DNA of 24,000 nucleotides. Origin: Synechococcus sp. RS9909. GTDB taxonomy: Bacteria > Cyanobacteriota > Cyanobacteriia > PCC-6307 > Cyanobiaceae. This document shows, piece by piece, positions 9,395-22,056 of this stretch. The notes below the pieces were generated by a model. That model did not search any database. It saw only the letters and a list, made by a program, of their open reading frames with translations, and was not told the origin of the DNA. A program made the translations under genes and the position numbers. The stretch is taken from assembly GCF_014279595.1 (NCBI RefSeq), contig NZ_CP047943.1, positions 1,772,422 through 1,796,421 on the forward strand. The letters run 5' to 3'. The stretch's first letter is position 1, and every line of letters begins with the position of its first letter.

Positions 9395-10338
9395 CATCGA
9401 CAACCCCCAAAGGCAAGAGCGGTTGGCCGATCCGCCTCATCGCCGTCATCCTCCTGGCCACGGCCAGCGATGCCCTGCTGAGCTATCAGGTCTCGCAATG
9501 GGCCTATGGATGGCTGCCGGTGCCGGCTTCCACCGCAGCTCCCTATGTCGATGATCTCTTCAGCCTTGAAGTGGGAATCGGCGCCTTCATCTTCTTCGGT
9601 TGCACCGGTTTCATTCTTTGGTCGGTGCTGTTCAATCGGGCCGAGAAATACGACGAAAGCGATGGCCTGCCGATCGAAGGCAACAACAAACTGGAGGTCA
9701 CCTGGACGGTGATTCCTTTCATCATCGTGATGATTCTGGCCTATCAGGCCATCCACGTGAGTGAAACCCTCTCAGCCCTCGGCCCCAAGGTGAAATACGA
9801 CGTGGAAGGGGGCCTGAGCCCAGACACGGCCATTGTGACGGGAGTGCGGGATGACATTGGCCCCATCGATGTGATCGCAAGGCAGTGGAGCTGGGAGTTC
9901 ATCTATCCCAACGGCGTGCACAGCTCAGAACTCCATCTCCCCCTCGATCAGCGGGCCAATTTCCGCATGAGCAGCGAGGATGTGATCCATGGTTTCTTTG
10001 TGCCCGCCTTCCGCCTGAAGCAGGACATCGTTCCCGGCAGCGTGATTTCCTACAGCATCACACCCACCCGAGAAGGGCGTTATCGCCTTCGGGATTCCCA
10101 GTTCAGCGGTGCTTATTTCTCCCAGAATCAAACCGATGTGGTGGTGGAGAGCGAAGATATGTTCAACGCCTGGTTGAAACAAAGTGCTGCCAATCCCCTG
10201 GTTCCCGGATTGAGCCCGGGAACGGCCCTCTACAACGAGCGCCTCGCCAAGGGCAATAAGGGCTGGGCCACGGTGCCACCGGCACCGCCTCCGATGGTGA
10301 ATGATCCCGGCAATCCCGACGCTCCTCACGACGCCTGA
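9391..10338 (+). CDS. ctaC: Heme-copper oxidase subunit II lacking the CuA site (ARTO/CtaCII type)
   Basis: 315 aa from the ATG at 9391. Two N-terminal TM segments plus a cupredoxin domain (DVIHGFFVPAFRLKQDIVPG). Where CuA oxidases read CAELCGxxHxxM, this protein reads RDSQFSGAYFSQN. Confidence 0.85.
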   Translation: MTSTTPKGKSGWPIRLIAVILLATASDALLSYQVSQWAYGWLPVPASTAAPYVDDLFSLEVGIGAFIFFGCTGFILWSVLFNRAEKYDESDGLPIEGNNKLEVTWTVIPFIIVMILAYQAIHVSETLSALGPKVKYDVEGGLSPDTAIVTGVRDDIGPIDVIARQWSWEFIYPNGVHSSELHLPLDQRANFRMSSEDVIHGFFVPAFRLKQDIVPGSVISYSITPTREGRYRLRDSQFSGAYFSQNQTDVVVESEDMFNAWLKQSAANPLVPGLSPGTALYNERLAKGNKGWATVPPAPPPMVNDPGNPDAPHDA

Positions 10339-10343
10339 CCCCG

Positions 10344-12032
10344 ATGACGACCACCAAGTACGACCCGAGAGTTCTCAAGGCGCCCCATCCGGTGCCCGGT
10401 GCGCCCGACAACTGGAAGCGGTTCTTCACCTTCAACACCGACGCCAAGGTGATCGGCATCCAGTACATGGGCCTGTCCCTGTTCTTCCTGCTGGTGGGAG
10501 GACTGCTGGCCATGGTGATGCGCGGTGAACTGATCACACCGCCATCGGATCTGGTGGATCCCACCGTTTACAACGGTCTTTACACCATGCATGGAACAGT
10601 GATGCTGTTCCTGTTTCTGTTCCCGATTCTCAACGGCTTCAACAACCTGCTGATCCCCACCATGATCGGCGCCCCCGACATGGCCTTCCCGAAAGTGAAC
10701 GCCGCCGCCTTCTGGCTGGTTCCGGTGTTCTCGGTGGTGCTGCTCTCCAGCTTTTTCGTGCCAGGAGGTCCGGCCTCAGCCGGTTGGTGGTCCTATCCAC
10801 CGGTGAGCATCCAGAACCCGCTCGGCCACTTCCTCAACGGTGAATTTCTTTGGATTCTCGCCGTGGCCCTCTCGGGGATCTCTTCGATCTTGGGCGCGCT
10901 GAATTTCGTGACCACAATCATTCGCATGCGGGCCCCTGGCATGGGCTTTTTCCGGATGCCCGTGTTCGTCTGGACCGCCTGGGCAGCCCAGACCCTGCAG
11001 TTGGTGGGCCTGCCCGCCCTGACCGGTGGGGCGATCATGCTGCTCTTTGACCTGAGCTTCGGCACCAGCTTTTTCCGGCCCGAAGGTGGCGGCGATCCGG
11101 TGCTCTATCAACACTTTTTCTGGTTCTATTCGCACCCGGCGGTGTATGTGATGGTGCTGCCGGTGTTCGGCATCTTCTCCGAGCTGATCACCGTGTATTC
11201 GCGCAAGCCTCTGTTTGGCTACAAGTTTGTGGCGATCGCCTCCTTCATCATCACCTTCCTGGGCTTGATCGTGTGGGTGCACCACATGTTCTATTCAGGT
11301 ACGCCCCAGTGGATGCGCAACATCTTCATCGTCACCACGATGCTGATCGCCGTGCCCACCGGCGTGAAGGTGTTCGCCTGGCTCGGCACGCTTTGGGGAG
11401 GAAAGATCCGACTCACCACGCCGATGCTGTTCGTGCTTGGTGGTGTGGTGAATTTCATTCTGGGTGGTGTTACTGGAATCATGCTCGGCACCGCACCGAT
11501 CGACATCCATGTGGGCAACACCTATTTTGTGGTGGCTCACTTCCACTACATCATCTTCAACACGATCGGCTTCGGAATCTTTGCCGGCATCTACCACTGG
11601 TTCCCCAAGTTCACCGGCCGCATGTATTACGAAGGCCTCGGCAAAATTCATTTTGTGCTCACCTTCATCGGTGCCACCCTCAACTGGCTGCCGATGCACT
11701 GGGCTGGCCTTTACGGCATGCCCCGTCGCGTTGCCTCCTACGACCCTGAATTCGCCATCTGGAACGTGATTGCCAGCATCGGCGCCTTCATGCTCGGCGT
11801 CGCTTCGATCCCCTTCATCCTCAACATCGTCAGCTCCTGGGCCCGCGGCGCCAAGGCCTCCGCCAACCCCTGGAACGCGATCGGCCTCGAATGGCTGCTT
11901 CCCTCACCGCCACCGGCTGAGAACTTCGAGGATGACGTTCCCACCGTGATCAGCGAGCCCTATGGCTATGGCCTGGGCAAGCCCCTCGTAAAGGACGAGG
12001 AGTATTACATCCGCCGTTCCATGGAGGCGTGA
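10344..12032 (+). CDS. ctaD: Heme-copper oxidase subunit I (A2 type)
   Basis: YTMHGTVMLF (heme a His), WFYSHPAVYVMVLP (CuB His, cross-link Tyr, YS motif), VWVHHMF (CuB His pair), VVAHFHYIIF (heme a3/a His). Confidence 0.95.
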   Translation: MTTTKYDPRVLKAPHPVPGAPDNWKRFFTFNTDAKVIGIQYMGLSLFFLLVGGLLAMVMRGELITPPSDLVDPTVYNGLYTMHGTVMLFLFLFPILNGFNNLLIPTMIGAPDMAFPKVNAAAFWLVPVFSVVLLSSFFVPGGPASAGWWSYPPVSIQNPLGHFLNGEFLWILAVALSGISSILGALNFVTTIIRMRAPGMGFFRMPVFVWTAWAAQTLQLVGLPALTGGAIMLLFDLSFGTSFFRPEGGGDPVLYQHFFWFYSHPAVYVMVLPVFGIFSELITVYSRKPLFGYKFVAIASFIITFLGLIVWVHHMFYSGTPQWMRNIFIVTTMLIAVPTGVKVFAWLGTLWGGKIRLTTPMLFVLGGVVNFILGGVTGIMLGTAPIDIHVGNTYFVVAHFHYIIFNTIGFGIFAGIYHWFPKFTGRMYYEGLGKIHFVLTFIGATLNWLPMHWAGLYGMPRRVASYDPEFAIWNVIASIGAFMLGVASIPFILNIVSSWARGAKASANPWNAIGLEWLLPSPPPAENFEDDVPTVISEPYGYGLGKPLVKDEEYYIRRSMEA

Positions 12033-12643
12033 AACCAATGACTTCAGCGAGCCAAGACCTCAACCTCAATCACGAGCCAGGCCACATCAAGCACGATGGC
12101 CACAACCTCACTGGCTTCATCATCTTTCTCTGCTCAGAGAGCATCATCTTTCTGGCTTTCTTCAGCGGCTTTGCCCTGCTAAAGCTCACCAGCCCCGAAT
12201 GGCTTCCGGAAGGGGTGGAAGGCTTGGAGACCAAGCTGCCCCTGATCAACACGATTGTGCTGGTGAGCTCCAGCTTTGTGGCCTACTTCGCAGAGCGTTA
12301 TCTCCACAAGGAAAACCTCTGGGGATTTCGGGCTCTCTGGCTGCTCACCATGGCGATGGGCACCTATTTCGTGTATGGGCAATACGTGGAATGGTCGGAG
12401 CTTCCCTTCAGTCTCTCCAATGGTGTGTTCGGGGGCACGTTCTATCTGCTCACCGGATTTCATGGCCTGCATGTGATCACGGGCATCCTCTTGATGGCCC
12501 TGATGCTGTTCCGTTCCTTCCGTCCCAACAATTACGCCAAGGGCGACATGGGGGTCACCTCCGTGAGCCTGTTCTGGCACTTTGTGGATGTGATCTGGAT
12601 CATTCTCTACATCCTGATCTACGTGTGGCAGCGCCACACCTGA
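12029..12643 (+). CDS. ctaE: Heme-copper oxidase subunit III
   Basis: FYLLTGFHGLHVITG and SLFWHFVDVIWIILY signatures. The GTG at 12029 overlaps the ctaD stop (GTGA); the ATG at 12038 is an alternative start. Confidence 0.9.
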   Translation: MKPMTSASQDLNLNHEPGHIKHDGHNLTGFIIFLCSESIIFLAFFSGFALLKLTSPEWLPEGVEGLETKLPLINTIVLVSSSFVAYFAERYLHKENLWGFRALWLLTMAMGTYFVYGQYVEWSELPFSLSNGVFGGTFYLLTGFHGLHVITGILLMALMLFRSFRPNNYAKGDMGVTSVSLFWHFVDVIWIILYILIYVWQRHT

Positions 12644-12667
12644 GTCGTTCCCTACCTGAATCGAGCC

Positions 12668-14188
12668 ATGATCATCGATGATTGCCACTACGACGTCATC
12701 ATCATCGGCAGCGGTGCCGGTGGTGGAACCCTGGCCGGTGCCCTGAGCCGCAAGGGGCACAAGGTGCTGCTGTTGGAGCGGGGCGGCGCCATGGCTCTGG
12801 AGGATCAGAACGTGGCCGATGTGGATCTGTTCAGGAAAGATCGCTACCACCCCAAAAATGAGCGCTGGTTCGGTCCTGACGGTGATCCCTTCGCTCCCCA
12901 GACCACCTATGCCCTGGGGGGCAACACCAAAATCTGGGGAGCTGCCCTGGAACGGATGCGCGAGAAAGATTTCGGCGAAATCCCACTCCAGGACGGCGTG
13001 TCACCAAGCTGGCCTTTCGATTACGCCAGCCTGGCGCCTTACTACGACGCCGCCGAAGCGCTCTATCAGGTGCATGGCCAAGCGGGTGTGGACCCCACGG
13101 AGCCGTCACGGTCGACACCTTTTCCCCACGCCCCGAAGCCGCTGCTTCCTTTCCTGGAACCATTGCGCGATGGCCTGCAGCGTCAGGGGTGTCAGCCCTA
13201 TGACCTCCCCCTGAGCTGGTCGACCGATCCCGAGGATCCTTCCGGCGACGCCCAGATTTTCGGCCTGAACCAGGCCGACCCCAACACGCTGGAGACGCGA
13301 GCCCTGGCGCGGGTGACCCGCCTGCACACCAGCCCCGATGGACGGGAGGTGAAAGGGGTGGAGGCCGAAGTGGCCGGGGACCTGTGGTTGTTCAGCGCTG
13401 ATCTGGTGGTGCTGGCCGCCGGCGCGATCAACAGCGCAGCCATCCTGCTGCGCTCCAGCTCCGATCGGCATCCACGCGGCCTGAGCAACGGCTCCGACCA
13501 GGTGGGCCGCAACCTGATGAATCTGCAGCTCACCTCAATCCTGCAGCTGGCGGCAGAGCCGAATAGCGGACGTTACGCCCGCTCTCTCGGCATCAACGAC
13601 TACTACTGGGGAGACAAGAACGTCAGCTTTCCGCTCGGTCATCTCCAGAGTGCCGGCGGCGTCTTGCAGGACGCCCTGTTTGCGGAGTCGCCGCCAGTGC
13701 TCTCCCTGGTGAGCAAGCTGATCCCCGATTTCGGTCTCGAACGACTCGCCTCCCGTTCGGTGGCCTGGTGGGCGATGACCGAAGTGCGACCCGATCCCCA
13801 CAACAAAGTGTGGCTTCACAACGACCAGATCAGGATCAACTACCTCCACAACAATCGAGAGGCTCACGATCGCCTGGTGTATCGCTGGATCGACACCCTC
13901 AAAGCGGTGGAGGCTGATCCGGTGACCCGGGTCGTGACCTCAGCGCCCACCCACCCGCGCGGCGAAGCTCCCCTGAGCGTGGTGGGTTATGCCTGCGGAA
14001 CCTGCCGGATGGGACAGGATGCGGCCGCCTCAGTGGTGGATGCCACCGGCAAGTGCCATGAACTCAACAACCTCTACCTGGCCGACGCCAGCGTGTTCCC
14101 CAGCTGCCCGAGCGTTGGCCCTGGTCTCACCGTGATTGCCCTGGCCCTCAGGCTCGCCGATCAGCTCGATCAGCGCCTTCAGGGCTGA
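12668..14188 (+). CDS. GMC-family FAD-dependent oxidoreductase
   Basis: N-terminal YDVIIIGSGAGGGTLAGALSRKGHKVLLLERGG (Rossmann FAD fold). C-terminal GTCRMG...NLYLADASVFPSCPSVGPGLTVIALALRLA (GMC C-terminal domain). Starts 24 nt after ctaE. Confidence 0.85.
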   Translation: MIIDDCHYDVIIIGSGAGGGTLAGALSRKGHKVLLLERGGAMALEDQNVADVDLFRKDRYHPKNERWFGPDGDPFAPQTTYALGGNTKIWGAALERMREKDFGEIPLQDGVSPSWPFDYASLAPYYDAAEALYQVHGQAGVDPTEPSRSTPFPHAPKPLLPFLEPLRDGLQRQGCQPYDLPLSWSTDPEDPSGDAQIFGLNQADPNTLETRALARVTRLHTSPDGREVKGVEAEVAGDLWLFSADLVVLAAGAINSAAILLRSSSDRHPRGLSNGSDQVGRNLMNLQLTSILQLAAEPNSGRYARSLGINDYYWGDKNVSFPLGHLQSAGGVLQDALFAESPPVLSLVSKLIPDFGLERLASRSVAWWAMTEVRPDPHNKVWLHNDQIRINYLHNNREAHDRLVYRWIDTLKAVEADPVTRVVTSAPTHPRGEAPLSVVGYACGTCRMGQDAAASVVDATGKCHELNNLYLADASVFPSCPSVGPGLTVIALALRLADQLDQRLQG

Positions 14189-14237
14189 GCCTGAGGCGCA
14201 CGGCATCACAGCGGGCCTCCATCACGACCGACGCCAT

Positions 14238-14705
14238 TCACTCACCGAGGAGGAAGGCGCGCAGAGAACCGATCGCACCAGCCTGAGACGGTTCCGATAC
14301 CAGCGCTCCCAGCACCAGACCACCGGCAAGAACACCATTGGGCAGAAAACGGGAGGCCAGCCGGGCCTCCAGTTCGGCATTGATGTCGTCGTTGGGGTAG
14401 AGGCTGAGCACAGCCATCACTTCCCGATCATCCATGAACTCTCGCACCAGGGGGGTGAGGAGAACATCGGGAAGAAATCCCTGTTCACGGCCGAACTGAT
14501 GCTGGAGGCCATGAAACAGTTCGTGGCGGGCCACCTCCGCCATGCTGCGTCGCTTGCGACGCGCCACCTCGGGGCAAAGGCTCACCCTCTGCTGCGCGGG
14601 ATCAAAACTGCCGACAAGGTTGCTGATCGCGTAACAGCCGCTTCCTCCCTCCACCACGTGAATGCCCGCCAACGACGACACCAGAAAAAGCAGAAACAGG
14701 GGCAT
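14238..14705 (-). CDS. Hypothetical small secreted/membrane protein with an HExxH motif
   Basis: Signal-like N-terminus MPLFLLFLVSSLAGIHV, ARHELFHGLQH (HExxHxxxH), hydrophobic C-terminal stretch LPNGVLAGGLVLGALV. The antisense ORF 14136..14726 is R/H/Q-rich and overlaps the GMC gene, so I prefer the minus frame. Confidence 0.5.
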   Translation of the reverse strand: MPLFLLFLVSSLAGIHVVEGGSGCYAISNLVGSFDPAQQRVSLCPEVARRKRRSMAEVARHELFHGLQHQFGREQGFLPDVLLTPLVREFMDDREVMAVLSLYPNDDINAELEARLASRFLPNGVLAGGLVLGALVSEPSQAGAIGSLRAFLLGE

Positions 14706-14707
14706 CG

Positions 14708-14730
14708 AGGGTTAACGCATTCTTAACCCT
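14708..14730. promoter_or_regulatory. Perfect 8-bp inverted repeat AGGGTTAA-N7-TTAACCCT
   Basis: Read directly at 14708-14715 and 14723-14730. It lies 3 nt upstream of the ATG of the HExxH gene and 47 nt downstream of the TonB-like stop. It could be a weak hairpin or a protein-binding palindrome. Confidence 0.35.
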
Positions 14731-14776
14731 TCCATCATGAAAGGTCTCACCGGATTCCCACAGTCCGTTTGAATAC

Positions 14777-15409
14777 CTATTCGAAGGGTCGACGTCCGAT
14801 CCAGACCCCCTGATCGTCAGCCCGCACCAGAAACTGATCGGCGTCGGATGTGAGGCTCAAACGGTTCAACTGCTTCACGTTGACGCCAGGAAAGGCCGTG
14901 AGGGGCAAGCGCCGGAGCTGAATCCCCTCAGGCAGTGGGCCGAAACGCTCCGGCCAGCTCCCCGCCACCGTTCCCTCCTCCCAACGGGCCCGGATCATCT
15001 CCACCGACAGCCCTGAAGCCACAGCGACAGGCTTGCCCCTGTCGACAGCTTTGTCCTTCGCAACAGCCTTATCCTCCAAAGCACTCGGAGGACAGGCCGG
15101 GGGCTTTTCGGCACCGGGCTTGGCAGCCGCATCCTTGGCCTCGACCAGCTCCGGTGGCGGCGGCAACTTGGCACTGAGGGTGAGCAGGGAGGAGGGCACC
15201 AGCGGCTCCTGTCCGCCCAGGCGCCGGCTCAGCCTCACGAGCTGGCGCGTGTTGTCCACCACCGTGGCCGCAGCGGCGGGAGGCGCGGCTCGGCTGCGCC
15301 AGCTGGAGGCACCGATCACCACCGCATGGATCACGATGGCCACGGCAACAGGAAGGGCCAGGGGCCACGCCTCAGGGGCGCGCCGGAGGAGGGAGTTCAA
15401 GGTCCACAT
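14777..15409 (-). CDS. TonB/TolA-like energy-transducer candidate: TonB-type TM anchor, Pro/Ala-rich spacer, non-TonB C-terminal domain
   Basis: 210 aa from the internal ATG at 15409: MWTLNSLLRRAPEAWPLALPVAVAIVIHAVVIGASSW resembles E. coli TonB LPRRFPWPTLLSVCIHGAVVAGLL (RR-x-P, WP, TM His). Spacer KLPPPPELVEAKDAAAKPGAEKPPACPP. The C-terminal ~90 aa lack the TonB_C pattern. Overlaps the upstream ExbD-like gene by 38 nt. Confidence 0.5.
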   Translation of the reverse strand: MWTLNSLLRRAPEAWPLALPVAVAIVIHAVVIGASSWRSRAAPPAAAATVVDNTRQLVRLSRRLGGQEPLVPSSLLTLSAKLPPPPELVEAKDAAAKPGAEKPPACPPSALEDKAVAKDKAVDRGKPVAVASGLSVEMIRARWEEGTVAGSWPERFGPLPEGIQLRRLPLTAFPGVNVKQLNRLSLTSDADQFLVRADDQGVWIGRRPFE

Positions 15410-15731
15410 GGAGCGTGCTGGAGTCAAGTCGGGGGAGCAGGTCTTGAACCACACCCCAGGGAACCTGGGGTGCCACCACCAAGCGAACGCGCGTGCTGGA
15501 ATCCAGGCGTTCGGCGCGCCGCAGCAGAGCGGGCAGGGCGGTGGCGGCAATCGGGCGGTTCCAGAGTCGGAGCGAGCCATCGGCGGTCAGATGGAGACTG
15601 ACCAGTCCCTGCCGTGCCGGCAACTGCCGCTGCCACTGGGGCATCACCACCGCTGCGGTGGCGAGGAGCGCAACGCAGACACTGGAAGCAGCGAAGGCCA
15701 GCGCCCAGGGCGCTGAAGGCGTCTCGTTCAT
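15372..15731 (-). CDS. ExbD/TolR-like biopolymer transport protein (copy 2)
   Basis: 119 aa with a single N-terminal TM. The periplasmic part LHLTADGSLRLWNRPIAATALPALLRRA...TRVRLVVAPQVPWGVVQDLLPRL aligns by eye to E. coli ExbD LSVKADNSMFIGNDPVTDETMITALNAL...TTIFFRGDKTVDYETLMKVMDTL. ATGA overlap with the upstream gene. Confidence 0.55.
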   Translation of the reverse strand: MNETPSAPWALAFAASSVCVALLATAAVVMPQWQRQLPARQGLVSLHLTADGSLRLWNRPIAATALPALLRRAERLDSSTRVRLVVAPQVPWGVVQDLLPRLDSSTLHVDLELPPPARP

Positions 15732-16090
15732 GGCTGCGCCAATCCCTCCGGCCGCTCCAGATGAATCGGCACGTTGCTCTGGCGCCTCAGCCAGCTGAGA
15801 TCGGCCGCAACCGCAGCGCTGGTGCGTGCACTGGAGGGCAGAAGCAACACCGCAGAGGGCCTGGGCCTGGCCTGACGCAAGGAGCGAGCCAACACCGCGG
15901 ACGACACGGCATCACCATTGAGATACCAGCTGCCGCTGCTGGAGCGGACCAGCAGCCATTGGCCCGCCGTCCGGGTCTTGGCTGCCGCCTCGACGACGGC
16001 AAGGTCCGGCGAACTCAGCAATGCGGGCACCAGAGCCAGAAAGCCGGTCAGGCTGACCACAACAACCGCAGTGGCAAGCACGAAAGGCAT
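15728..16090 (-). CDS. ExbD/TolR-like biopolymer transport protein (copy 1)
   Basis: 120 aa from the ATG at 16090 (TGATG overlap with the ExbB-like stop). MPFVLATAVVVVSL compares with ExbD TPFIDVMLVLLIIF. The periplasmic part WLLVRSSSGSWYLNGDAVSSAVLARSL...AVLLLPSSARTSAAVAADLSWL has the same pattern. Confidence 0.5.
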   Translation of the reverse strand: MPFVLATAVVVVSLTGFLALVPALLSSPDLAVVEAAAKTRTAGQWLLVRSSSGSWYLNGDAVSSAVLARSLRQARPRPSAVLLLPSSARTSAAVAADLSWLRRQSNVPIHLERPEGLAQP

Positions 16091-16611
16091 CAACCCAGGG
16101 CCGCTCGGCGGTGGAAACAAGCGTCGGCGAAGGTGCTGATCACCGCCTGGCGTTGCATCCGGCAGAGACGCTGCACCACCAAGGCGATGGTGGCAATCAA
16201 CAGACCCAGCACGGTGCCCACCAGCACCTGGCCATAGCCCACCACCAGGGCAGCACTCTGCGCCGGGAGCACCAGATCAGGGCCCAGATCCCTGAGCAAA
16301 CGCATGAGGCCCACCACGCTGGCGAGCAGACCGAGCAGGGGGCCGAGCACCATGGCGAGCTCCAGGCAGCCATCCCAGCGAGACAGCGATCGCTCCAGTC
16401 GGCGGCAAAGCCGCTCCTGATGCAACGCCGCCTGGGCGGCGGTTCGATCACTGACTTCACTGAGCAGGGCCTCGAGCTGGGCGGCACCGACCTGACGCCA
16501 CCGCCACCAGAACCGCAGGCGATCGATGGCCACCGCAACGACAGCCACCGACAGAAGCAGCAGAGGCACGATCAGTACGCCACCGTGGCGCAGGGCCTCA
16601 GCAGTGAGCAC
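16090..16611 (-). CDS. MotA/TolQ/ExbB-family proton-channel protein
   Basis: 173 aa with 3 TM. GGVLIVPLLLLSVAVVAVAIDRL (TM1) and LGPLLGLLASVVGLM...GYGQVLVGTVLGLLIATIALVV (TM2-TM3, compare PLLGLLGTVxGM...AL..T..GL). GTG start 18 nt after the TauE stop. Confidence 0.7.
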   Translation of the reverse strand: MLTAEALRHGGVLIVPLLLLSVAVVAVAIDRLRFWWRWRQVGAAQLEALLSEVSDRTAAQAALHQERLCRRLERSLSRWDGCLELAMVLGPLLGLLASVVGLMRLLRDLGPDLVLPAQSAALVVGYGQVLVGTVLGLLIATIALVVQRLCRMQRQAVISTFADACFHRRAALG

Positions 16612-16629
16612 GATTCCGCCACCACGCGA

Positions 16630-17463
16630 TCAGGTCGACGTTAGGGACCCCTGGACGACACCCATGTGCTGCACCTGCTTGACAGGAGCACGTTGACGCC
16701 GCAATCCCTCCCATCCTGTGAGCAAGGCCGCAGACACCAGCAGGACAGAGAAGCCGATGCGGAGCTGGCGATCCTTGAAATGGGGCGCAAGGGCCTGGCC
16801 GACCAGTCCACCCACCCCACCGCCGATCAACAGGGGAAGTACCAGGGGCAACCGTTCGGCAGGCCAGTGCCCCAGGGCACCGAGGGCCACCAGGCTGTTC
16901 AGGGCAATCAGCACCAGGCTGGTGCCGCTCGCCAACTGCATCGGCAGGCCGGCCAGAAGCACGAGGGCTGGCACGAGCGCAAAGCCGCCACCGACGCCGG
17001 CAATGCCCGTCAGCAAGCCCACCAACACCCCCTGCAGCATCAGGGCCGGTGCTCGCACCGTGGCAGCGGCAACAGCGGGCTCGTCATGCGCGCGATCCGT
17101 TCGCTTCTGACGGCTGAGCATCAACCAGGCCGCCAGCAGGGCCGCGATGGCAAACACAGCCAGCTGCACCGGCTCGGCGATCCAGCCAGCCTTCACCATC
17201 GTGCCTCCGATCCAGGCCCCCATCAGGGCCGGAACCCCCAGCAGCAGGGCCGGACGGGGCGCGACGAGGCGACGGCGCAGATAGGGAATCATGTTGGCGA
17301 TCGCCAGCAGGGTCACCACCACCAGCGAAAGGGGCACCGCATCGCGGGTGGAGAGGCCAGCTCCCGTCACGAGGATGGGAAGCAGCAGGATCGATCCACC
17401 GGCACCGAGCACCGCCAACAGGAAACCGATCACACCACCACCGAGAAGCAGCAACGCAATCAC
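16630..17463 (-). CDS. TauE/SafE (DUF81) family sulfite/organosulfonate exporter-like membrane protein
   Basis: Duplicated 4-TM halves with LGAGGSILLLPIL and GIAGVGGGFALVPALVL motifs. The GTG start overlaps the upstream stop (GTGA 17460-17463). Confidence 0.8.
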   Translation of the reverse strand: MIALLLLGGGVIGFLLAVLGAGGSILLLPILVTGAGLSTRDAVPLSLVVVTLLAIANMIPYLRRRLVAPRPALLLGVPALMGAWIGGTMVKAGWIAEPVQLAVFAIAALLAAWLMLSRQKRTDRAHDEPAVAAATVRAPALMLQGVLVGLLTGIAGVGGGFALVPALVLLAGLPMQLASGTSLVLIALNSLVALGALGHWPAERLPLVLPLLIGGGVGGLVGQALAPHFKDRQLRIGFSVLLVSAALLTGWEGLRRQRAPVKQVQHMGVVQGSLTST

Positions 17464-17987
17464 GGGCGCACCTGATTCCAGGGCATGGCAGCCAGCAGGC
17501 GAGCCATCCCGCAGAAACCACTGATGCCGGCGAACATCAAGCCGGCACCGACAAAGCCACTGAGCCAGATCCAGCCCGGGGCCACCAGCACCGACAGAAG
17601 CACGCCAGCGAGCACCAGGCCGCCGGCCACGATCTGCACCTGACGCATCAGGGGCAACGGGGCCCCCTTGCGCTTCTCCACAGGAAGACCGGCCTGCTGC
17701 CAGGCCAACATGCCGCCCTCCAGATCCGCGAGGCCTTCGCCGAAGCCCTTGGCGCGCAGAGCCGCCATCCCCCGCTCACTGCGGGCACCGCTCTGGCACA
17801 CCAGCACCAGAGGCGCGGAAGGGAGTGGCGCTTCGGTGAGCTGACCGAGGGGCACATTGCGACTGCCGGCGATATGGCCGCCGACGTATTCCATCGGTTC
17901 ACGCACGTCGATCACGCTGACGCGACCCTGGCGTAAACGGTCCTGCAATTCGTGGGGACTGAGACGCAATGGAGTGATGCTGGTCAT
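17460..17987 (-). CDS. Rhodanese domain fused to a DUF2892 membrane domain (YgaP-like)
   Basis: 175 aa from the ATG at 17987: MTSITPLRLSPHELQDRL..., active-site loop VCQSGARS (CxxxxR). C-terminal VAGGLVLAGVLLS...GAGLMFAGISGFCGMARLL matches the DUF2892 pattern. The longer track ORF (to 18320) reads through a C/T-rich spacer and the upstream gene. Confidence 0.8.
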   Translation of the reverse strand: MTSITPLRLSPHELQDRLRQGRVSVIDVREPMEYVGGHIAGSRNVPLGQLTEAPLPSAPLVLVCQSGARSERGMAALRAKGFGEGLADLEGGMLAWQQAGLPVEKRKGAPLPLMRQVQIVAGGLVLAGVLLSVLVAPGWIWLSGFVGAGLMFAGISGFCGMARLLAAMPWNQVRP

Positions 17988-17993
17988 GGCGAA

Positions 17994-18028
17994 GGGATGG
18001 GGTGAATGGGAATGGGAAGGGGAAGGGG
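17994..18028 (+). other. G-tract array (six G3-4 runs, loops 2-5 nt); canonical G-quadruplex motif on the + strand, C/T-rich on the mRNA-sense (-) strand
   Basis: GGGatGGGGtgaatGGGaatGGGaaGGGGaaGGGG read directly. It lies in the 85-nt spacer between the PDO-rhodanese and ygaP-like genes. Confidence 0.7.
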
Positions 18029-18072
18029 AAGGAAGGCGGTGAATCAACCCTGGGAAACAGGTCCGGTGCCGC

Positions 18073-19185
18073 TCAGACGCTGAGGGGTTCGGGCATGGGC
18101 AGCCCTTTGCGATACCAGTCCTGAAGTCCGCCGCGCAGGTTGGCGACCTTCTTGAAACCGGCCTTGACCAACTGCTGGGTCGCGAGGGCGGAACGGCTAC
18201 CGGCATGGCAGAACACCACGGTGGCAACCTCCGGATCGAGTCGATCGAGATGCTCCGCCAGTTCGGGCAGAGGGATGTTGCGGCTGCCGGGCAGCGCGCC
18301 ATCGGGCCCCCGGGCTTCATCGGCGTTGCGAACGTCGAGAATCGTGAGCTCGGCGAGATGGTCGGCGACCCACTCGGGCTCCAGCTCCGGCAGGCCGGAG
18401 TAGCTGCGCTTCAACGGTGCCCACGCGGGTTGGTCCGGCCCATCGATCCGGGGGCGCCCACTGCGCAGATTCGCCGGCAGGGCCTGGGCGATGCGATGCG
18501 GGTGGGGAAGTTTGAGCGATTCCATATGAATCACGAAATCCCGCTCATCGGCCCCACCACCCAGACGGGCGTTGAGGGCACGCTCCTCGGCAACGCTGGT
18601 CACCTGACGACCGCTGTAGTCGTGGCCGGGATAGAGAAGGCACTGGTCGGGCAGGGAGAGGATCTGCTCGGTGATCGAGCGATAGAGGGTGTGAGCGTTG
18701 CCCTGCTGGAAATCGGAGCGGCCGCAACCCCTGATCAACAAGGCATCGCCGGTGAAGGCCGCACTGGCGTCATCCAACACGAAGGTGAGACAGCCATCGG
18801 TGTGCCCTGGAGTGGCACGCACCTCCAGGGCACGGGCTCCGAAACCGACCCGATCGCCGTGTTGCAGGGGCTGGGTGACATTCTCGGCGCGAGCGGCGGC
18901 GGCGAGGCCGATGGCGGCACCGGTGGCCTCATGCATCAGCCAGCTGCCGGTGACATGGTCGGCATGGGCGTGGGTGTCGAGGCAGGCCACCAGATCGACC
19001 CCTAACTCACGCACCAGGGCGAGATCCCGCTCATGACGCTCGAAGACCGGATCGATCAGCACACCCTTGGCCGAGGGCACATCCACCAGGAGGTAGCTGA
19101 AGGTACCGGTCTCAGCATCGAACAACTGGCGCAGAAGCAGGGAATGGCCTCCTGCGGCGGCCTGGAGAAGCGAAGAGCTAGCCAT
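18073..19185 (-). CDS. Persulfide dioxygenase (ETHE1/Blh-type MBL fold) fused to a C-terminal rhodanese domain
   Basis: THAHADHVTG (HxHxDH), TPGHTDGC, GDALLIRGCGRSDFQQGNAHTLYRSI, LYPGHDY. C-terminal rhodanese with FCHAGSRS (CxxxxR). Confidence 0.85.
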   Translation of the reverse strand: MASSSLLQAAAGGHSLLLRQLFDAETGTFSYLLVDVPSAKGVLIDPVFERHERDLALVRELGVDLVACLDTHAHADHVTGSWLMHEATGAAIGLAAAARAENVTQPLQHGDRVGFGARALEVRATPGHTDGCLTFVLDDASAAFTGDALLIRGCGRSDFQQGNAHTLYRSITEQILSLPDQCLLYPGHDYSGRQVTSVAEERALNARLGGGADERDFVIHMESLKLPHPHRIAQALPANLRSGRPRIDGPDQPAWAPLKRSYSGLPELEPEWVADHLAELTILDVRNADEARGPDGALPGSRNIPLPELAEHLDRLDPEVATVVFCHAGSRSALATQQLVKAGFKKVANLRGGLQDWYRKGLPMPEPLSV

Positions 19186-19203
19186 GGGTCCTCAGATCAC
19201 TTT

Positions 19204-19219
19204 ATGAGTGTACACGCAT
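19204..19219. promoter_or_regulatory. 16-bp near-perfect palindrome ATGAGTGTACACGCAT (7 of 8 pairs; core GTGTACAC); candidate ArsR-family operator
   Basis: Read directly. It lies 19-34 bp upstream of the PDO-rhodanese ATG, in the divergent region shared with the ArsR-like gene. Confidence 0.3.
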
Positions 19220-19362
19220 ATCAACATCGCTCATGGTTTTCGGCCCAGGACCTGCACCACGGCGCTGTCTCCCTGGTGGTAGCGCCCTTCCGCGATCGGG
19301 CGGGCATCCATGGCCGCATCGCATCACGACGGCATAATGCCTGTATCGGCATAGGGGAGGCC

Positions 19363-19725
19363 ATGGCGAGACAACCAGAACACGCCGAAGGGTGTTCCAT
19401 GCATCAGCTCTCCCCCGAAATGATCGAGGAGCTGAGCGGCTTTTTCCGACTGCTGGGCGAACCGGCACGCCTGCGCCTGATGTGCGAAATCCGCAACGGC
19501 AGCAGCGATGTGGCCACTCTGATGGACCGCACCGGCTTCAGTCAGTCCCATCTCAGCCGCCAGCTCGGCCAACTGCAGAAAGCCGGGCTGGTGCAGGTGG
19601 AACGGGATGGGAACCGCTCTCGGTATACGGCCACCGATCCGGTGGTGGAGGCCATCTGCCAGCTGGCGCAGGAGCGGCTGATGAACCACCTGCGGCAACG
19701 GCTCGACAGCCTCAATGTCGCCTGA
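19363..19725 (+). CDS. ArsR/SmtB-family winged-helix regulator, BigR/SqrR-like (two-Cys persulfide-sensor layout)
   Basis: FFRLLGEPARLRLMCEIRNGSSDVATLMDRTGFSQSHLSRQLGQLQKAGLVQVERDGNRSRYTA (HTH). Cys in alpha2 (LMCEI) and alpha5 (AICQL). Alternative start ATG 19399. Divergent from the PDO operon. Confidence 0.75.
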   Translation: MARQPEHAEGCSMHQLSPEMIEELSGFFRLLGEPARLRLMCEIRNGSSDVATLMDRTGFSQSHLSRQLGQLQKAGLVQVERDGNRSRYTATDPVVEAICQLAQERLMNHLRQRLDSLNVA

Positions 19726-19736
19726 GCCGCCCCAGC

Positions 19737-21098
19737 TCAGGCCATCGTGACGAATTCCTCCGAGATCGTGGGGTGCAGCGCCATGGTGCGATCGAAATCG
19801 GCCTTGGTGGCCCCCATGCCAACGGCGATCGCCGCCATCTGAATGATCTCGGCCGCATGCTCTCCCACCATGTGGCAGCCGAGCACGCGATCGCTCTCCT
19901 TGTTCACCACCAGCTTGAGCAGGCAGCGCGGCCCACTCTTCGGCAAGGCCTGGGCCATGGAGCGGAACCGGGCGCGATGCACCACGATCGCCTCGGCCCC
20001 ATAACGCTCCAACGCCAGCTCTTCGCTCAGCCCTACGGTGGCCAGCTCCGGCTGGCTGAACACAGCGCTGGCGACCAGATCATGATCCACCCGACGGGGG
20101 GATCGGCCGAACACGGTGTCGGCGTAGGCGCGTCCCTCATCCACAGCCACGGGGGTCAGGCAGATCCGATCGGTCACATCACCGACGGCATGAATGTGGG
20201 GCACGTTCGTGGCCTGGTCAGCATCGACGGCAATGTGATGCCCTTCCACCGCCACCCCGGCGGCCTCCAGGTTGAGACCCTCCAGAAAAGGGCGACGACC
20301 GGTGGCGAGCAATACGCCACCGCACGCAAGCCGCTCTCCCGCCTGGGTGATCACGGTGCAATCCCCTGGCGCCCCCTCGATCGCCGCTGGACTGTGGCAG
20401 AAGCGCAAGGCGATGCCTTTCTCCTCCATGCCCTCCTGCACCACCGCCGACAGCTCACGATCGAACCCCCGGAGGAGGTGATCGCCTCGCACCAACTGGG
20501 TGACCTGCACCCCGAGGCCGCTGAGGATGCAGGCGAATTCACAGGCAATGAAGCCGGCACCCACGATCACCACCCGCTCCGGAAATTGATCCTGGAGGAA
20601 CATGTCATCGCTGACCCAACCGAGCTCGGCACCGGGAATCTGGGGCCGATGGGGGCGGCCACCGACGGCGATCAGGGTGCGCCCGGCCTGCAACACCTGC
20701 TCCGCCTCTCCTCCGGGACGCGACGACACGGCAATCCGATGGGGATCCTGAAAGCGACCCCAGCCACTCACCAGGGTGACGCCAGCCTTCTCCAACAGGC
20801 TGATGTGGAGGGCATTGAGACGATCCACCTCCTGGCGGACATTGGCCAGCAAGCGGGAGGTGTGGAACTGGGCGGAGGCGATCTCCACGCCATAGGCAGG
20901 GGCTTCCTGGAGTTGCTCACTCACCCTGGAGCCATACACCAGCAGTTTTTTGGGCACGCAGCCCCGGATCACACAGGTGCCGCCAACCCGATCCCCTTCC
21001 ACGATGGCGACTCTGGCGCCATAACGCGCCGCCCGTTTGGCAGCGGCCAGACCACCGGAACCGGCCCCCAGCACCACCAGATCAAATGACGTTTCCAT
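19737..21098 (-). CDS. gor: Glutathione-disulfide reductase
   Basis: METSFDLVVLGAGSGGLAAAKRAARYGARVAIVE, redox-active GGTCVIRGCVPKK, C-terminal HPTISEEFVTM. The ATG at 21098 is preferred over the upstream GTG at 21122. Confidence 0.9.
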   Translation of the reverse strand: METSFDLVVLGAGSGGLAAAKRAARYGARVAIVEGDRVGGTCVIRGCVPKKLLVYGSRVSEQLQEAPAYGVEIASAQFHTSRLLANVRQEVDRLNALHISLLEKAGVTLVSGWGRFQDPHRIAVSSRPGGEAEQVLQAGRTLIAVGGRPHRPQIPGAELGWVSDDMFLQDQFPERVVIVGAGFIACEFACILSGLGVQVTQLVRGDHLLRGFDRELSAVVQEGMEEKGIALRFCHSPAAIEGAPGDCTVITQAGERLACGGVLLATGRRPFLEGLNLEAAGVAVEGHHIAVDADQATNVPHIHAVGDVTDRICLTPVAVDEGRAYADTVFGRSPRRVDHDLVASAVFSQPELATVGLSEELALERYGAEAIVVHRARFRSMAQALPKSGPRCLLKLVVNKESDRVLGCHMVGEHAAEIIQMAAIAVGMGATKADFDRTMALHPTISEEFVTMA

Positions 21099-21123
21099 CG
21101 GCGCAGCCAACAGGCGACCCACA

Positions 21124-21537: not shown

Positions 21538-22056
21538 TCAGGCGACAGCAGCGGCAGCGCGGTCGAAGTAGGTGCCGATTTCAGACATCAGAGCGGAGCA
21601 GTCACCAGCGGTGATGCCGTTCTTGTCGTTGGCGATGGCGATAGCCGCATCCTTCATCTTGCGAACGCCTTCAGCGACGGAAGCGCCGGGGACGCCCAGG
21701 GCCAGGTAGGTCTCACGCAGGCCGTTGAGGCAACGGTCTTCCAGCACGGAAGCATCGCCGGTGAAGGCGGCGTAGGTGACGTAGCGGAGGATGATCTCCA
21801 TGTCGCGCAGGCAGGCAGCCATGCGGCGGTGGGTGTAAGCGTTCCCCCCGGGGGCGATCAGGGCGGGCTGCTGGGCGAAGAGTTCGCGAGCGGCGTTGGT
21901 GACGATGGAAGAAGCGTTGGAGGTGATGCGGTTCACAGCATCCATGCGCTTGTTGCTGTCAGCAACCATGGCAGCCAGAGCATCGATCTGGCCGGCGTTG
22001 ATGAATTCGCCACGGGCGTCAGCCTGGGCAACAACCTTGGTGAAGGCGTCGAACAT
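21538..22056 (-). CDS. cpcB: Phycocyanin beta subunit
   Basis: 172 aa: [18 protein letters not shown]...[23 protein letters not shown]...[30 protein letters not shown]...[18 protein letters not shown]...[26 protein letters not shown]. Cys-82, Cys-153 and Asn-72 contexts are intact. Near-identical in pattern to C-/R-phycocyanin beta chains. Confidence 0.9.

What the first reader, a model, noticed from the sequence alone, without database searches (positions are those of the whole stretch)
14777..16611. Divergent ExbB-ExbD-ExbD-TonB/TolA-like four-gene motor cluster with no TonB-dependent receptor in sight
Four minus-strand genes are chained by overlapping stop/start codons: TGATG at 16088-16092, ATGA at 15728-15731, and a 38-nt overlap at 15372-15409. 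They encode a 3-TM MotA/TolQ/ExbB-type channel, two ExbD/TolR-like single-TM proteins, and a TM-anchored Pro/Ala-rich protein. This is the architecture of a proton-motive-force transducer. No TonB-dependent outer-membrane receptor, Pal/TolB or flagellar gene is nearby, and every component is sequence-divergent (see the next two findings). What such a motor energises in a picocyanobacterium is not obvious. Possibilities include outer-membrane uptake, envelope maintenance or a surface process.
Basis: partly seen in the sequence, partly recalled or inferred. Interest (0 to 1): 0.75.

Follow-up and report, generated by a model that had tools for sequence, protein, structure and literature searches.

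The report
Ton/Tol-like envelope module lacking its aspartate
A marine Synechococcus carries a conserved four-gene relative of the bacterial Ton/Tol "membrane motor", but its outer arm has an unknown end domain and its lineage has lost the acidic residue that known motors of this kind need to use the proton gradient, so both its target and its power source are open questions.

Summary
The four overlapping minus-strand genes are real. They match annotated proteins of Synechococcus sp. RS9909/RS9917 exactly. The same four-gene module recurs in every related marine, MAG and freshwater locus whose downstream genes I examined.

- **g1** is a short, three-helix ExbB/TolQ-type protein (Pfam MotA_ExbB, 40.9 bits against a cutoff of 22.9).
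- **g3** has an ExbD/TolR periplasmic fold (AlphaFold2 pLDDT 89). Its seven best PDB matches are all ExbD or TolR.
- **g2** is probably a paralogue of g3, on weak profile evidence.
- **g4** resembles TonB/TolA only in layout: a membrane helix with a conserved His, a conserved motif just after it, a proline-rich linker and a globular end. The end domain matches no TonB, TolA or other solved fold. The family is small and, on the sources that name an organism, picocyanobacterial.

No TonB-dependent receptor, TolB/Pal or flagellar gene lies in the 24 kb window.

The new point concerns the membrane-helix acid. In 73% of g3 relatives a conserved Asp/Glu sits at the cytoplasmic end of the helix. This strain's lineage has Trp there, and g2 never has an acid. 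All four genes are nevertheless under purifying selection.

Verdict: a new variant of a Ton/Tol-type transducer, with unknown target and doubtful proton coupling.

The parts
16090..16611 (-). g1: short (173 aa) three-TM ExbB/TolQ-type subunit. In RS9909 it is annotated 'MotA/TolQ/ExbB proton channel family protein', QNI79920.1.
   Evidence: Pfam MotA_ExbB scores 40.9 bits against a gathering score of 22.9. A profile of the family hits ExbB (5sv0, E 1.8e-8) and TolQ (8odt) in the PDB. Three TM segments. Exact match to the database protein.
16156..16371 (-). g1 TM2-TM3 core (residues 81-152). Ser98 and Thr133 align with the ExbB pore-ring residues T148 and T181. Gln128 (codon 16228-16230) aligns with ExbB E176.
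   Evidence: HMMER alignment of the g1 family profile to E. coli ExbB and TolQ. These are the most conserved columns of the family alignments.
15728..16090 (-). g2: 120 aa with a single TM helix at the extreme N-terminus. Probable divergent ExbD/TolR paralogue with no TM acid. Annotated as hypothetical protein SynRS9909_01937.
   Evidence: No Pfam or NCBIfam hit. hhalign against the g3 family gives P 2.9e-4 over 89 colinear columns. Against a five-sequence canonical ExbD/TolR profile it gives P 0.002 over 88 columns. Two of nine homologues hit Pfam ExbD at E about 0.08. No Asp/Glu in the TM helix of any of 13 homologues.
15372..15731 (-). g3: 119-aa ExbD/TolR-fold protein with one TM helix. 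Annotated as hypothetical protein SynRS9909_01936; IMG calls relatives ExbD.
   Evidence: AlphaFold2 mean pLDDT 89.2. The top seven Foldseek PDB hits are all ExbD or TolR periplasmic domains (E 1.1e-4, rmsd 2.1 A, TM-score up to 0.79). hhalign of the family against a canonical ExbD/TolR profile gives Prob 86%, E 5.5e-6. Ten of 41 relatives hit Pfam ExbD.
15705..15707 (-). g3 Trp9 codon. This is the position, 22 residues before the Pro-Gln that ends the TM helix, where most family members carry Asp/Glu. That acid is the probable equivalent of ExbD D25.
   Evidence: 78 of 107 evaluable cluster representatives have D/E at -22 or -23. 29 have none, including the window lineage.
15396..15605 (-). 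g3 periplasmic alpha/beta domain (residues 43-112).
   Evidence: Secondary structure from the model and the region aligned to ExbD/TolR structures.
14777..15409 (-). g4: 210-aa protein with TonB/TolA-like architecture (TM helix, conserved motif, Pro/Ala-rich disordered linker, globular C-terminal domain). Annotated as hypothetical protein SynRS9909_01935.
   Evidence: No Pfam or NCBIfam hit. Only 19 clusters at 50% identity among 1.84 billion representatives. Model and domain layout. Family alignment.
15299..15373 (-). g4 TM helix (residues 13-37) with a nearly invariant His28 (codon 15326-15328) in a P-x3-A-x3-H pattern. E. coli TonB has P12-x3-S16-x3-H20, recalled from memory.
   Evidence: His is present in 15 of 17 aligned family members, with Gln or Asn in the other two. 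Hydropathy. The SHLS motif as the motor-binding face of TonB/TolA comes from PMC12204202.
15221..15262 (-). g4 conserved motif VVDNTRQLVRLSRR (residues 50-63). It lies about 13-26 residues after the TM helix, in the same post-helix region where TonB/TolA carry the D-box/motor box.
   Evidence: It is the most conserved block of the family: N53 and L57 are invariant, and D52, T54 and R59 are at least 90% conserved. The D-box position and pattern come from PMC10907165. Binding to g2/g3 is inferred, not tested.
15152..15163 (-). g4 PPPP run (residues 83-86) at the start of the disordered Pro/Ala/Lys-rich linker.
   Evidence: P85 is invariant. pLDDT is below 50 for residues 68-82 and 86-129. Composition.
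14780..15022 (-). g4 C-terminal globular domain (residues 130-210), fold unassigned.
   Evidence: pLDDT is 83-95 across this region. No Foldseek PDB match at E <= 0.001; the best hits are 38-43-column matches to Ragulator/roadblock proteins at E 0.2-0.5. No PDB sequence hit.
14238..14705 (-). g5: 155-aa secreted-type protein with an HELFH (HExxH) motif, 71 nt downstream on the same strand. Found in the window and three of the marine-type loci (L001, L003, L012); a possible accessory gene, not part of the core module.
   Evidence: Present after g4 in the window, WH7803, WH8017 and L012. Absent from L013 and from the freshwater loci, and not determined for L002 and L005. It is the most constrained of the five genes in the two pairs that could be scored (dN/dS 0.07-0.17). 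Weak Pfam Zn_peptidase_2 hit, E 0.012.

Best explanation
This is a conserved Ton/Tol-type inner-membrane module, found so far only in picocyanobacteria.

Shown:
- g1 is an ExbB/TolQ-family three-TM protein.
- g3 has the ExbD/TolR fold.
- g4 has a TM helix with a conserved His, a conserved motif after the helix, a Pro-rich disordered linker and a confident globular end domain of unassigned fold.
- The four genes travel together with overlapping junctions and are under purifying selection.

Inferred:
- g2 is a second ExbD-type paralogue.
- g1 forms the pentameric collar around the TM helices of g2 and g3, probably as a heterodimer.
- g4 docks on the outside of that collar through its His-bearing helix.
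- The g4 motif is held by the g2/g3 periplasmic domains, as the TonB D-box is held by ExbD.
- The g4 linker spans the periplasm, and its end domain contacts an outer-membrane or peptidoglycan-associated partner that is not a TonB-dependent receptor.

I therefore read it as a Tol-like envelope link or an outer-membrane process, not as siderophore or B12 import.

In most relatives g3 carries the helix-end Asp/Glu expected of a proton-driven stator. In this strain's lineage (marine subcluster 5.1B: RS9909/RS9917, and also WH7803 and WH8017) that acid is replaced by Trp or another neutral residue, and g2 has none. Canonical proton coupling is therefore doubtful here. The complex is still maintained by selection. 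It either couples to the ion gradient by an unrecognised route or works as a passive tether.
For: - g1: Pfam MotA_ExbB above the gathering score. Family profile hits to ExbB, TolQ and MotA structures, with the pore Thr/Ser positions kept.
- g3: model pLDDT 89. The seven best PDB matches are ExbD or TolR. hhalign to a canonical ExbD/TolR profile gives E 5.5e-6. Ten of 41 relatives hit Pfam ExbD.
- g2: colinear hhalign matches to g3 (P 2.9e-4) and to canonical ExbD (P 0.002).
- g4: architecture and conserved His and motif.
- Precedent: motor-linked transducers with an SHLS helix, a motor box and a non-TonB end domain are described in PMC12204202.
- Module conservation.
- Selection: dN/dS is 0.12-0.27 for WH7803 against WH8017, both acid-less. 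It is 0.21-0.36 for a comparably diverged acid-bearing freshwater pair.
- Acid: present in 78 of 107 g3 relatives and absent in the window lineage.
- No receptor gene in the window.
- Published surveys place TBDT clusters, which carry their own tonB-exbBD, only in Synechococcus 5.1A subclades (PMC9122953; PMC10119275).
Against: - No complex was modelled, so stoichiometry, g2/g3 pairing and g4 docking are all inferred.
- The g2 assignment is statistically weak.
- The g4 end domain has no recognisable fold and no identified partner.
- The g4 motif is modelled as a helix at modest confidence and does not follow the TonB D-box pattern of alternating hydrophobic and polar residues.
- Equating the family's helix-end acid with ExbD D25 rests on position only, within about three residues, because no alignment covers the TM helices.
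- I could not scan the RS9909 genome for TBDTs or for a second ExbBD/TonB set.
- The absence of a TM acid argues against any motor activity of the known kind in this strain.
Confidence: 0.6

Rival explanations
1. It is an ordinary TonB-ExbB-ExbD energiser that serves TonB-dependent receptors encoded elsewhere in the genome, for example for iron or B12. It is simply too diverged for the profile models to recognise.
For: - The gene order ExbB-ExbD-ExbD-anchor is a known Ton arrangement.
- Synechocystis has an exbB-exbD3-exbD4 cluster that responds to iron and to Fur (PMC8634477).
- g4 keeps a TonB-like His in its TM helix.
Against: - The g4 end domain is confidently modelled yet matches no TonB_C or TolA structure or sequence.
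- In canonical Ton loci recovered in the same session, Pfam recognises the ExbD (both loci) and a weak TonB_C in one.
- Published TBDT clusters in marine Synechococcus carry their own tonB-exbBD and lie in 5.1A subclades, not in this strain's group.
- There is no TM Asp in this lineage.
Confidence: 0.07
2. In this lineage the module is a former motor turned into a static scaffold. It still assembles across the envelope, as a tether or organiser, but no longer converts ion flow into work.
For: - There is no Asp/Glu in either ExbD-like TM helix, whereas 73% of relatives have one.
- The ExbB E176 position is Gln.
- Published work calls the TM Asp of MotB/ExbD/TolR essential (PMC12204202).
- All four genes are still under purifying selection.
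Against: - The pore-lining TM2/TM3 block of g1, including the Thr/Ser ring, remains the most conserved part of the protein in the acid-less clade. A pure tether would not obviously need this.
- Constraint is not relaxed relative to the acid-bearing clade.
Confidence: 0.25
3. It is a decaying relic on its way to loss in marine Synechococcus, with no current function.
For: - The canonical acid has been lost.
- In Synechococcus MIT S1220 only a truncated g1 fragment remains at the syntenic place.
- The genes evolve fairly fast. g2 and g4 are only 43-54% identical between RS9909 and its relatives.
Against: - All four ORFs are intact, with conserved starts and conserved overlaps, in RS9909, WH 8101 (same 90%-identity clusters), WH7803, WH8017 and several MAGs.
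- dN/dS is 0.12-0.38, no higher than in the acid-bearing clade.
- Strongly conserved motifs persist in g3 and g4.
Confidence: 0.05
4. The module works with the neighbouring sulfur-stress genes (ArsR-type regulator, beta-lactamase-fold/rhodanese protein, rhodanese-YgaP, TauE exporter, pyridine-nucleotide disulfide oxidoreductase), for instance in moving a sulfur compound across the envelope.
For: - g1 starts 18 nt after the TauE stop on the same strand.
- The same sulfur genes lie upstream of the module in distant marine-type and freshwater loci: L010, L011, L012, L014 and the P0112 locus.
Against: - In WH7803 and L013 the sulfur genes are missing and the module directly follows the oxidoreductase gene.
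- In freshwater loci an oppositely oriented PALP gene separates the two sets.
- The pattern fits inherited synteny near dnaA equally well.
- No mechanistic link between Ton/Tol motors and these enzymes is known to me.
Confidence: 0.08
5. It is a stator for surface motility, or a Zorya-type anti-phage system built on a MotAB-like core.
For: MotA/ExbB-type cores are reused in gliding motors and in Zorya (general knowledge).
Against: - No PADLOC model matches any of the five proteins.
- No ZorC/D-like genes, motility genes or mobile-element context are present. The locus lies in a stretch near dnaA that is syntenic with WH7803.
- From my own knowledge, swimming in marine Synechococcus is confined to clade III, not to these strains.
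Confidence: 0.03

Closest known systems
TonB-ExbB-ExbD system (E. coli type; also operons with ExbB and two ExbD genes)
   Same: - An ExbB-family three-TM subunit with the pore Thr/Ser positions kept.
- ExbD-fold periplasmic domain(s) on a single TM helix.
- A fourth protein with an N-terminal TM helix bearing a conserved His, a proline-rich linker and a globular end.
- A tight, overlapping operon.
   Different: - No TonB_C domain, and no TBDT nearby or reported for this clade.
- The ExbD-like proteins of this strain lack the D25-type carboxylate.
- ExbB E176 is Gln.
- The cytoplasmic domain of g1 is only about 50 residues.
- g2, g3 and g4 fall below all curated family thresholds.
TolQ-TolR-TolA of the Tol-Pal system
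   Same: The same motor family and the same three-domain transducer layout. A role in the envelope rather than in receptor-mediated import is plausible because no receptor is present.
   Different: No TolB, Pal or CpoB genes are present. The g4 end domain is not TolA domain III. The linker is proline-rich and disordered rather than helical. Cyanobacteria are not reported to have Tol-Pal.
Alternative motor-driven force transducers with non-TonB end domains (vWA-type; PMC12204202, Mol Biol Evol 2025)
   Same: They are found next to ExbB/TolQ-type motor genes. They have a TM helix with the SHLS His, a motif after the helix, a linker of about 100 disordered or proline-rich residues, and an end domain unrelated to TonB/TolA.
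   Different: The end domain here is a small alpha/beta domain of about 80 residues with no recognisable fold, not vWA. The family has so far been seen only in picocyanobacteria. The partner ExbD-like proteins have lost the Asp in this lineage.
Synechocystis sp. PCC 6803 sll0477-sll0478-sll0479 (exbB, exbD3, exbD4)
   Same: A cyanobacterial ExbB gene followed by two small ExbD-type genes. I recall that the two small genes are annotated as unknown proteins in older annotations.
   Different: I could not obtain those sequences, so orthology is untested. That cluster is iron- and Fur-responsive (PMC8634477), and Synechocystis has TBDTs and a recognised TonB.

Membership tests
MotA/TolQ/ExbB (PF01618) - g1 | Match to the family profile above the curated threshold | tested here: met
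   40.9 bits against a gathering score of 22.9, E 2e-10. A profile of 20 relatives hits ExbB 5sv0 (E 1.8e-8), TolQ 8odt (6.4e-7) and MotA.
MotA/TolQ/ExbB (PF01618) - g1 | Three TM helices with conserved polar ring residues in TM2 and TM3 (ExbB T148 and T181) | tested here: met
   Three hydrophobic segments. Ser98 (Thr in most relatives) and Thr133 align with T148 and T181.
MotA/TolQ/ExbB (PF01618) - g1 | Acidic residue at the start of TM3 (ExbB E176 / TolQ E173) | tested here: not met
   Gln128 aligns with E176. Gln is invariant among the 11 closest relatives and replaced in a few more distant ones.
ExbB or TolQ equivalogs (NCBIfam TIGR02797, TIGR02805, and others) | Score above the equivalog cutoff | tested here: not met
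   The best is TIGR02805 at 23.6 bits against a cutoff of 135.
ExbD/TolR (PF02472) - g3 | Periplasmic alpha/beta domain of the ExbD/TolR fold on a single N-terminal TM helix | tested here: met
   Model pLDDT 89. Foldseek ranks 1-7 are ExbD or TolR, with E down to 1.1e-4 and rmsd 2.0-2.2 A over 70-72 columns for ranks 1-5. hhalign Prob 86%, E 5.5e-6.
ExbD/TolR (PF02472) - g3 | Match to the Pfam profile above the gathering score | tested here: not met
   The window protein has no hit. Ten of 41 relatives hit at E < 1, and the best is 25.3 bits against a cutoff of 25.4. The hits cover only profile positions about 32-119.
ExbD/TolR (PF02472) - g3 and g2 | Essential carboxylate in the TM helix (ExbD D25, TolR D23, MotB D32) | tested here: not met
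   No D/E in the TM segment of g2 or g3. 78 of 107 g3 relatives have D/E at the cytoplasmic end of the helix, but the window lineage has Trp. No g2 homologue has one.
ExbD/TolR (PF02472) - g2 | Detectable homology to ExbD/TolR | tested here: inconclusive
   hhalign P 2.9e-4 against the g3 family (Prob 40%) and P 0.002 against a canonical profile (Prob 14%), both colinear over about 88 columns. Two of nine homologues hit Pfam ExbD at E about 0.08.
TonB (TonB_C, PF03544) / TolA - g4 | C-terminal TonB/TolA domain that binds its partner by strand addition | tested here: not met
   No Pfam or NCBIfam hit. The confident end-domain model has no PDB fold match at E <= 0.001. The profile has no PDB sequence hit. 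No TonB appears among 19 related clusters.
TonB / TolA - g4 | N-terminal TM helix with the SHLS motor-binding motif (Ser-x3-His-x6-Leu-x3-Ser) | tested here: inconclusive
   His is conserved in 15 of 17 members, with P-x3-A-x3-H spacing. The Ser, Leu and Ser positions are not kept.
TonB / TolA - g4 | D-box/motor box: a strand-forming motif after the TM helix that is captured by the ExbD/TolR dimer | tested here: inconclusive
   A strongly conserved 14-residue motif lies in a similar post-helix position. It is modelled as a helix at pLDDT 57-73 and does not follow the published hydrophobic/polar pattern. Binding is not testable with these tools.
TonB-dependent transport | A TonB-dependent receptor with a Ton box in the genome | not testable with these tools
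   None in the 24 kb window. The literature places TBDT clusters in other Synechococcus subclades.
Tol-Pal | tolB and pal (and cpoB) linked to tolQRA | tested here: not met
   No such domains in the window or in the related loci whose gene tables were read.
Zorya or other MotAB-based defence systems | Match to ZorA/ZorB models and presence of ZorC/D-type partners | tested here: not met
   No PADLOC hit at E <= 0.1 for g1-g5. The neighbours are housekeeping and respiratory genes.
5:2 ion-driven rotary motor | A pentamer of the A subunit enclosing two B-subunit TM helices | not testable with these tools
   No multimer prediction tool was available.

The most novel reading that the evidence does not exclude
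A Ton/Tol-derived envelope complex has lost the proton-binding carboxylate of its ExbD-like subunits in a whole marine lineage, yet stays under selection as strong as in its acid-bearing freshwater relatives. If so, a 5:2-type 'motor' either runs on a coupling chemistry not yet described or has been converted into a non-motor trans-envelope tether. In both cases it acts through a new type of periplasm-spanning arm whose target in the cyanobacterial outer envelope is unknown.
Probability: 0.3. Interest if true: 0.75.

Novelty: new variant of a known kind. Interest (0 to 1): 0.6.

Why it matters
Marine Synechococcus are major primary producers, and most of them have no TonB-dependent receptors. 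What energises processes at their outer membrane is therefore unclear.

This module is a conserved candidate for such a link, and it is not mentioned in the literature I could search. It also offers a natural experiment on 5:2 motors. Closely related operons exist with and without the supposedly indispensable TM carboxylate, under similar selective constraint.

Finding the partner of the g4 end domain could reveal how picocyanobacteria connect inner membrane, peptidoglycan and outer membrane without Tol-Pal. Testing whether the acid-less version still responds to the proton gradient would test how general the Asp-based mechanism is.

Tried and rejected
- **Concatenated query.** One homology search with g2 and g3 joined, to save quota, returned only two hits because the candidate list saturated at 8000. 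That search was wasted.
- **Genome-locus search.** The first attempt used an alignment too diverse to yield patterns. The repeat found only six loci because it depends on two short peptide patterns. The phyletic range in marine clades is therefore under-sampled.
- **Profile searches of PDB sequences.** These were uninformative for g2 and g4 and gave only E about 1 hits to ExbD for g3.
- **Promoter and terminator scan.** The scan of 14000-19900 gave nothing above the shuffle expectation, so operon boundaries remain unknown.
- **Literature.** Jiang et al. 2015 on cyanobacterial ExbB-ExbD is not in the held library. No paper mentions the RS9909 or WH 8101 locus tags.
- **Compensating acid.** I looked for a marine-specific acid elsewhere in g1, g2 or g4. 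The acids at g1 D30 and E84 are also present in acid-bearing freshwater relatives, so they are not a compensation.
- **Defence and motility readings.** Rejected; see the rival explanations.


Full report
**Observation**

- g1 runs 16611..16090 and starts with GTG.
- g2 runs 16090..15728, with a TGATG overlap.
- g3 runs 15731..15372, with an ATGA overlap.
- g4 runs 15409..14777 and overlaps g3 by 38 nt.

Hydropathy gives three TM segments in g1 and one each in g2, g3 and g4. The g4 linker is rich in Pro and Ala.

They are real genes. All four translations, and those of the neighbours, match annotated proteins of Synechococcus sp. RS9909 exactly, and the MULTISPECIES/EAQ records appear to be RS9917. 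In those records g1 is named 'MotA/TolQ/ExbB proton channel family protein'. g2, g3 and g4 are 'hypothetical protein' (SynRS9909_01937, _01936, _01935). IMG calls some g3 relatives ExbD.

**Conservation**

Homologues of g1 form a family of short (154-176 aa) proteins, and every source that names an organism gives a picocyanobacterium. In every locus whose downstream genes I examined, g1 is followed by genes of about 115-125, 115-132 and 210-320 codons that carry no Pfam domain, and the junctions overlap at almost every gene pair. These loci are:
- Synechococcus WH7803 and WH 8017;
- three MAG or Tara contigs;
- freshwater Synechococcus CS-1325;
- several freshwater metagenome contigs.

The 38-nt g3/g4 overlap recurs in the five other marine-type loci and in L017. 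In MIT S1220 only a truncated g1 remnant is left.

Nei-Gojobori dN/dS for g1-g4 is 0.12-0.27 between WH7803 and WH8017. It is 0.19-0.38 between the window and L012 or WH7803.

**What each protein is**

*g1.* It passes the Pfam MotA_ExbB threshold (40.9 bits against 22.9) but is far below every NCBIfam ExbB/TolQ equivalog cutoff. A family profile aligns TM2 and TM3 to E. coli ExbB and TolQ.
- Ser98 (Thr in most relatives) and Thr133 fall on the ExbB pore-ring residues T148 and T181.
- Gln128 falls on ExbB E176.
- The loop between TM1 and TM2 is only about 50 residues.

*g3.* The window protein has no Pfam hit. An alignment of 41 relatives gave an AlphaFold2 model with mean pLDDT 89.2: a TM helix followed by a small alpha/beta domain.
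- Its seven best Foldseek matches in the PDB are all ExbD or TolR periplasmic domains (E 1.1e-4 to 0.02). For the five best, rmsd is about 2.1 A over 70-72 columns, and TM-score normalised to the target reaches 0.79.
- hhalign of the family against a five-sequence canonical ExbD/TolR profile gives Prob 86%, E 5.5e-6.
- Ten of 41 relatives touch Pfam ExbD, the best 0.1 bit below threshold and only over the periplasmic part.

*g2.* The case is weaker. hhalign gives P 2.9e-4 against the g3 family and P 0.002 against the canonical profile, both colinear over about 88 columns. Two of nine homologues hit Pfam ExbD weakly. I treat g2 as a probable paralogue of g3.

*g4.* It belongs to a small family: 19 clusters at 50% identity among 1.84 billion representatives, none of them a recognisable TonB. 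The alignment and model show:
- a short cytoplasmic N-terminus;
- a TM helix with a nearly invariant His in a P-x3-A-x3-H pattern (E. coli TonB has P12-x3-S16-x3-H20, from my memory of that sequence);
- an invariant-rich motif, VVDNTRQLVRLSRR;
- a PPPP run;
- a disordered stretch, residues 68-129;
- a confident C-terminal domain, residues 130-210, pLDDT 83-95.

That end domain has no Foldseek match in the PDB at E <= 0.001 and no TonB or TolA hit at all. The family profile finds nothing in PDB sequences. g4 is therefore TonB/TolA-like in layout, not in its business end.

A 2025 survey describes just such motor-linked transducers, with an SHLS-type helix, a 'motor box' and a non-TonB (vWA) end domain (PMC12204202). 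The TonB D-box that ExbD captures lies 11-14 residues after the TM helix (PMC10907165). The g4 motif lies in the same post-helix region, about 13-26 residues after the helix, but does not share the published residue pattern. Its role is inferred.

**The missing acid**

Published work describes the TM Asp of MotB/ExbD/TolR as the essential proton-binding residue (PMC12204202). Neither g2 nor g3 of this strain has any Asp or Glu in its TM segment.

Across the g3 family the picture is split. Of 107 evaluable cluster representatives, 78 carry Asp or Glu exactly 22 or 23 residues before the Pro-Gln that ends the helix, that is, at its cytoplasmic end. The other 29 have none. The acid-less set comprises:
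- the window lineage, with Trp at -22 and Pro, His, Gln, Ala or Ser at -23;
- WH7803 and WH8017;
- a second, separate subgroup.

No g2 homologue has a TM acid.

The equivalence of this acid with ExbD D25 rests on position only, because no alignment covers the helices. I found no marine-specific acid elsewhere in g1, g2 or g4.

Constraint is not relaxed in the acid-less clade. dN/dS is 0.12-0.27 there, against 0.21-0.36 for a comparably diverged acid-bearing freshwater pair. The TM2/TM3 core of g1 stays the best-conserved part of the protein.

**Surroundings**

The window holds no TBDT, TolB/Pal or flagellar gene.
- Upstream on the same strand lie a beta-lactamase-fold/rhodanese protein, a rhodanese-YgaP protein and a TauE exporter. 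The TauE stop is 18 nt before g1.
- Further upstream are a divergent ArsR-type regulator and a pyridine-nucleotide disulfide oxidoreductase.
- Beyond those are a phycobilisome protein, DUF2808, a ParB-like nuclease and dnaA.
- Downstream are g5 (a small secreted-type HExxH protein), a GMC oxidoreductase and an alternative cytochrome oxidase operon with two DUF2231 genes.

WH7803 has the same block without the sulfur genes. Freshwater loci keep the sulfur genes upstream but differ downstream. PADLOC finds no defence-system match.

Published surveys report TBDT clusters, which carry their own tonB-exbBD, only in Synechococcus 5.1A subclades II, III, IV, UC-B and CRD2 (PMC9122953; PMC10119275). 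From my own knowledge, RS9909/RS9917 and WH7803 belong to 5.1B. I could not scan their genomes.

**Interpretation**

The best reading is a Ton/Tol-type module with a lineage-specific transducer. In this reading:
- a g1 collar encloses the g2 and g3 helices;
- g4 docks through its His-bearing helix, and its motif is held by the g2/g3 periplasmic domains;
- the g4 linker and end domain reach an unidentified outer-envelope partner that is not a TonB-dependent receptor.

The family memberships and the architecture are shown. The assembly and the target are inferred.

For this strain, canonical proton coupling is doubtful. The complex may be a tether derived from a motor, or it may couple by an unrecognised route. 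A conventional Ton system, a decaying relic, a sulfur-linked function, motility and defence are all less likely, for the reasons given under the rival explanations.

**Novelty**

g1 is already annotated, and IMG labels some g3 relatives ExbD. I found no paper on the cluster. What appears new is the following:
- the four-gene module as a unit;
- the g4 family with its unassigned end domain;
- the lineage-specific loss of the TM acid under continued selection.

I rate it a new variant of a known kind.

Noticed in passing
window 16630-19725 and 19737-21122; also L010, L011, L012, L014: A sulfur-stress-type gene set lies directly upstream of the module: an ArsR-family regulator, a beta-lactamase-fold + rhodanese protein, rhodanese-YgaP, a TauE exporter and a Pyr_redox_2 oxidoreductase. 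Parts of the same set recur upstream of the module in distant freshwater loci. In WH7803 and L013 only the oxidoreductase remains. It could be inherited synteny or a functional link.
   Followed up: partly
window 14238-14705 (-): g5 is a 155-aa protein with an N-terminal signal-like segment, an HELFH (HExxH) motif and a hydrophobic C-terminal stretch. It follows g4 in the window and in L001, L003 and L012, and it is the most constrained gene of the group in the two pairs that could be scored (dN/dS 0.07-0.17). It gives only a weak Zn_peptidase_2 hit (E 0.012). RS9909 annotates it as 'putative conserved secreted protein'.
   Followed up: partly
L006 10001-10342 (Synechococcus sp. MIT S1220): Only a 116-codon fragment of g1 remains, and no ORF resembling g2-g4 follows it. 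This looks like a recent loss of the module in one marine strain.
   Followed up: no
window 8256-14188 (+): Two DUF2231 membrane-protein genes precede a ctaC-ctaD-ctaE cytochrome oxidase operon, which is followed by a GMC oxidoreductase. The same set of genes, in the same relative order, is seen in L012.
   Followed up: no
L016 5001-5642: A 213-aa MotA_ExbB-family gene stands alone, next to LmeA and a cytosine/purine permease, with no ExbD-like gene beside it. It came up as a distant hit of g1.
   Followed up: no
L013 9231-9706: In this Tara contig about 475 nt separate g3 from the called start of g4, unlike the 38-nt overlap elsewhere. This may be a mis-called start, an insertion or a frameshift.
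   Followed up: no
window 21538-23980: The window ends close to dnaA (C-terminal part at 23396-23980, minus strand), with a ParB-like nuclease, DUF2808 and a phycobilisome-protein gene in between. dnaA and the ParB-like nuclease gene also lie upstream of the module in WH7803, so the module sits in a dnaA-proximal block that is syntenic between the two strains.
   Followed up: partly
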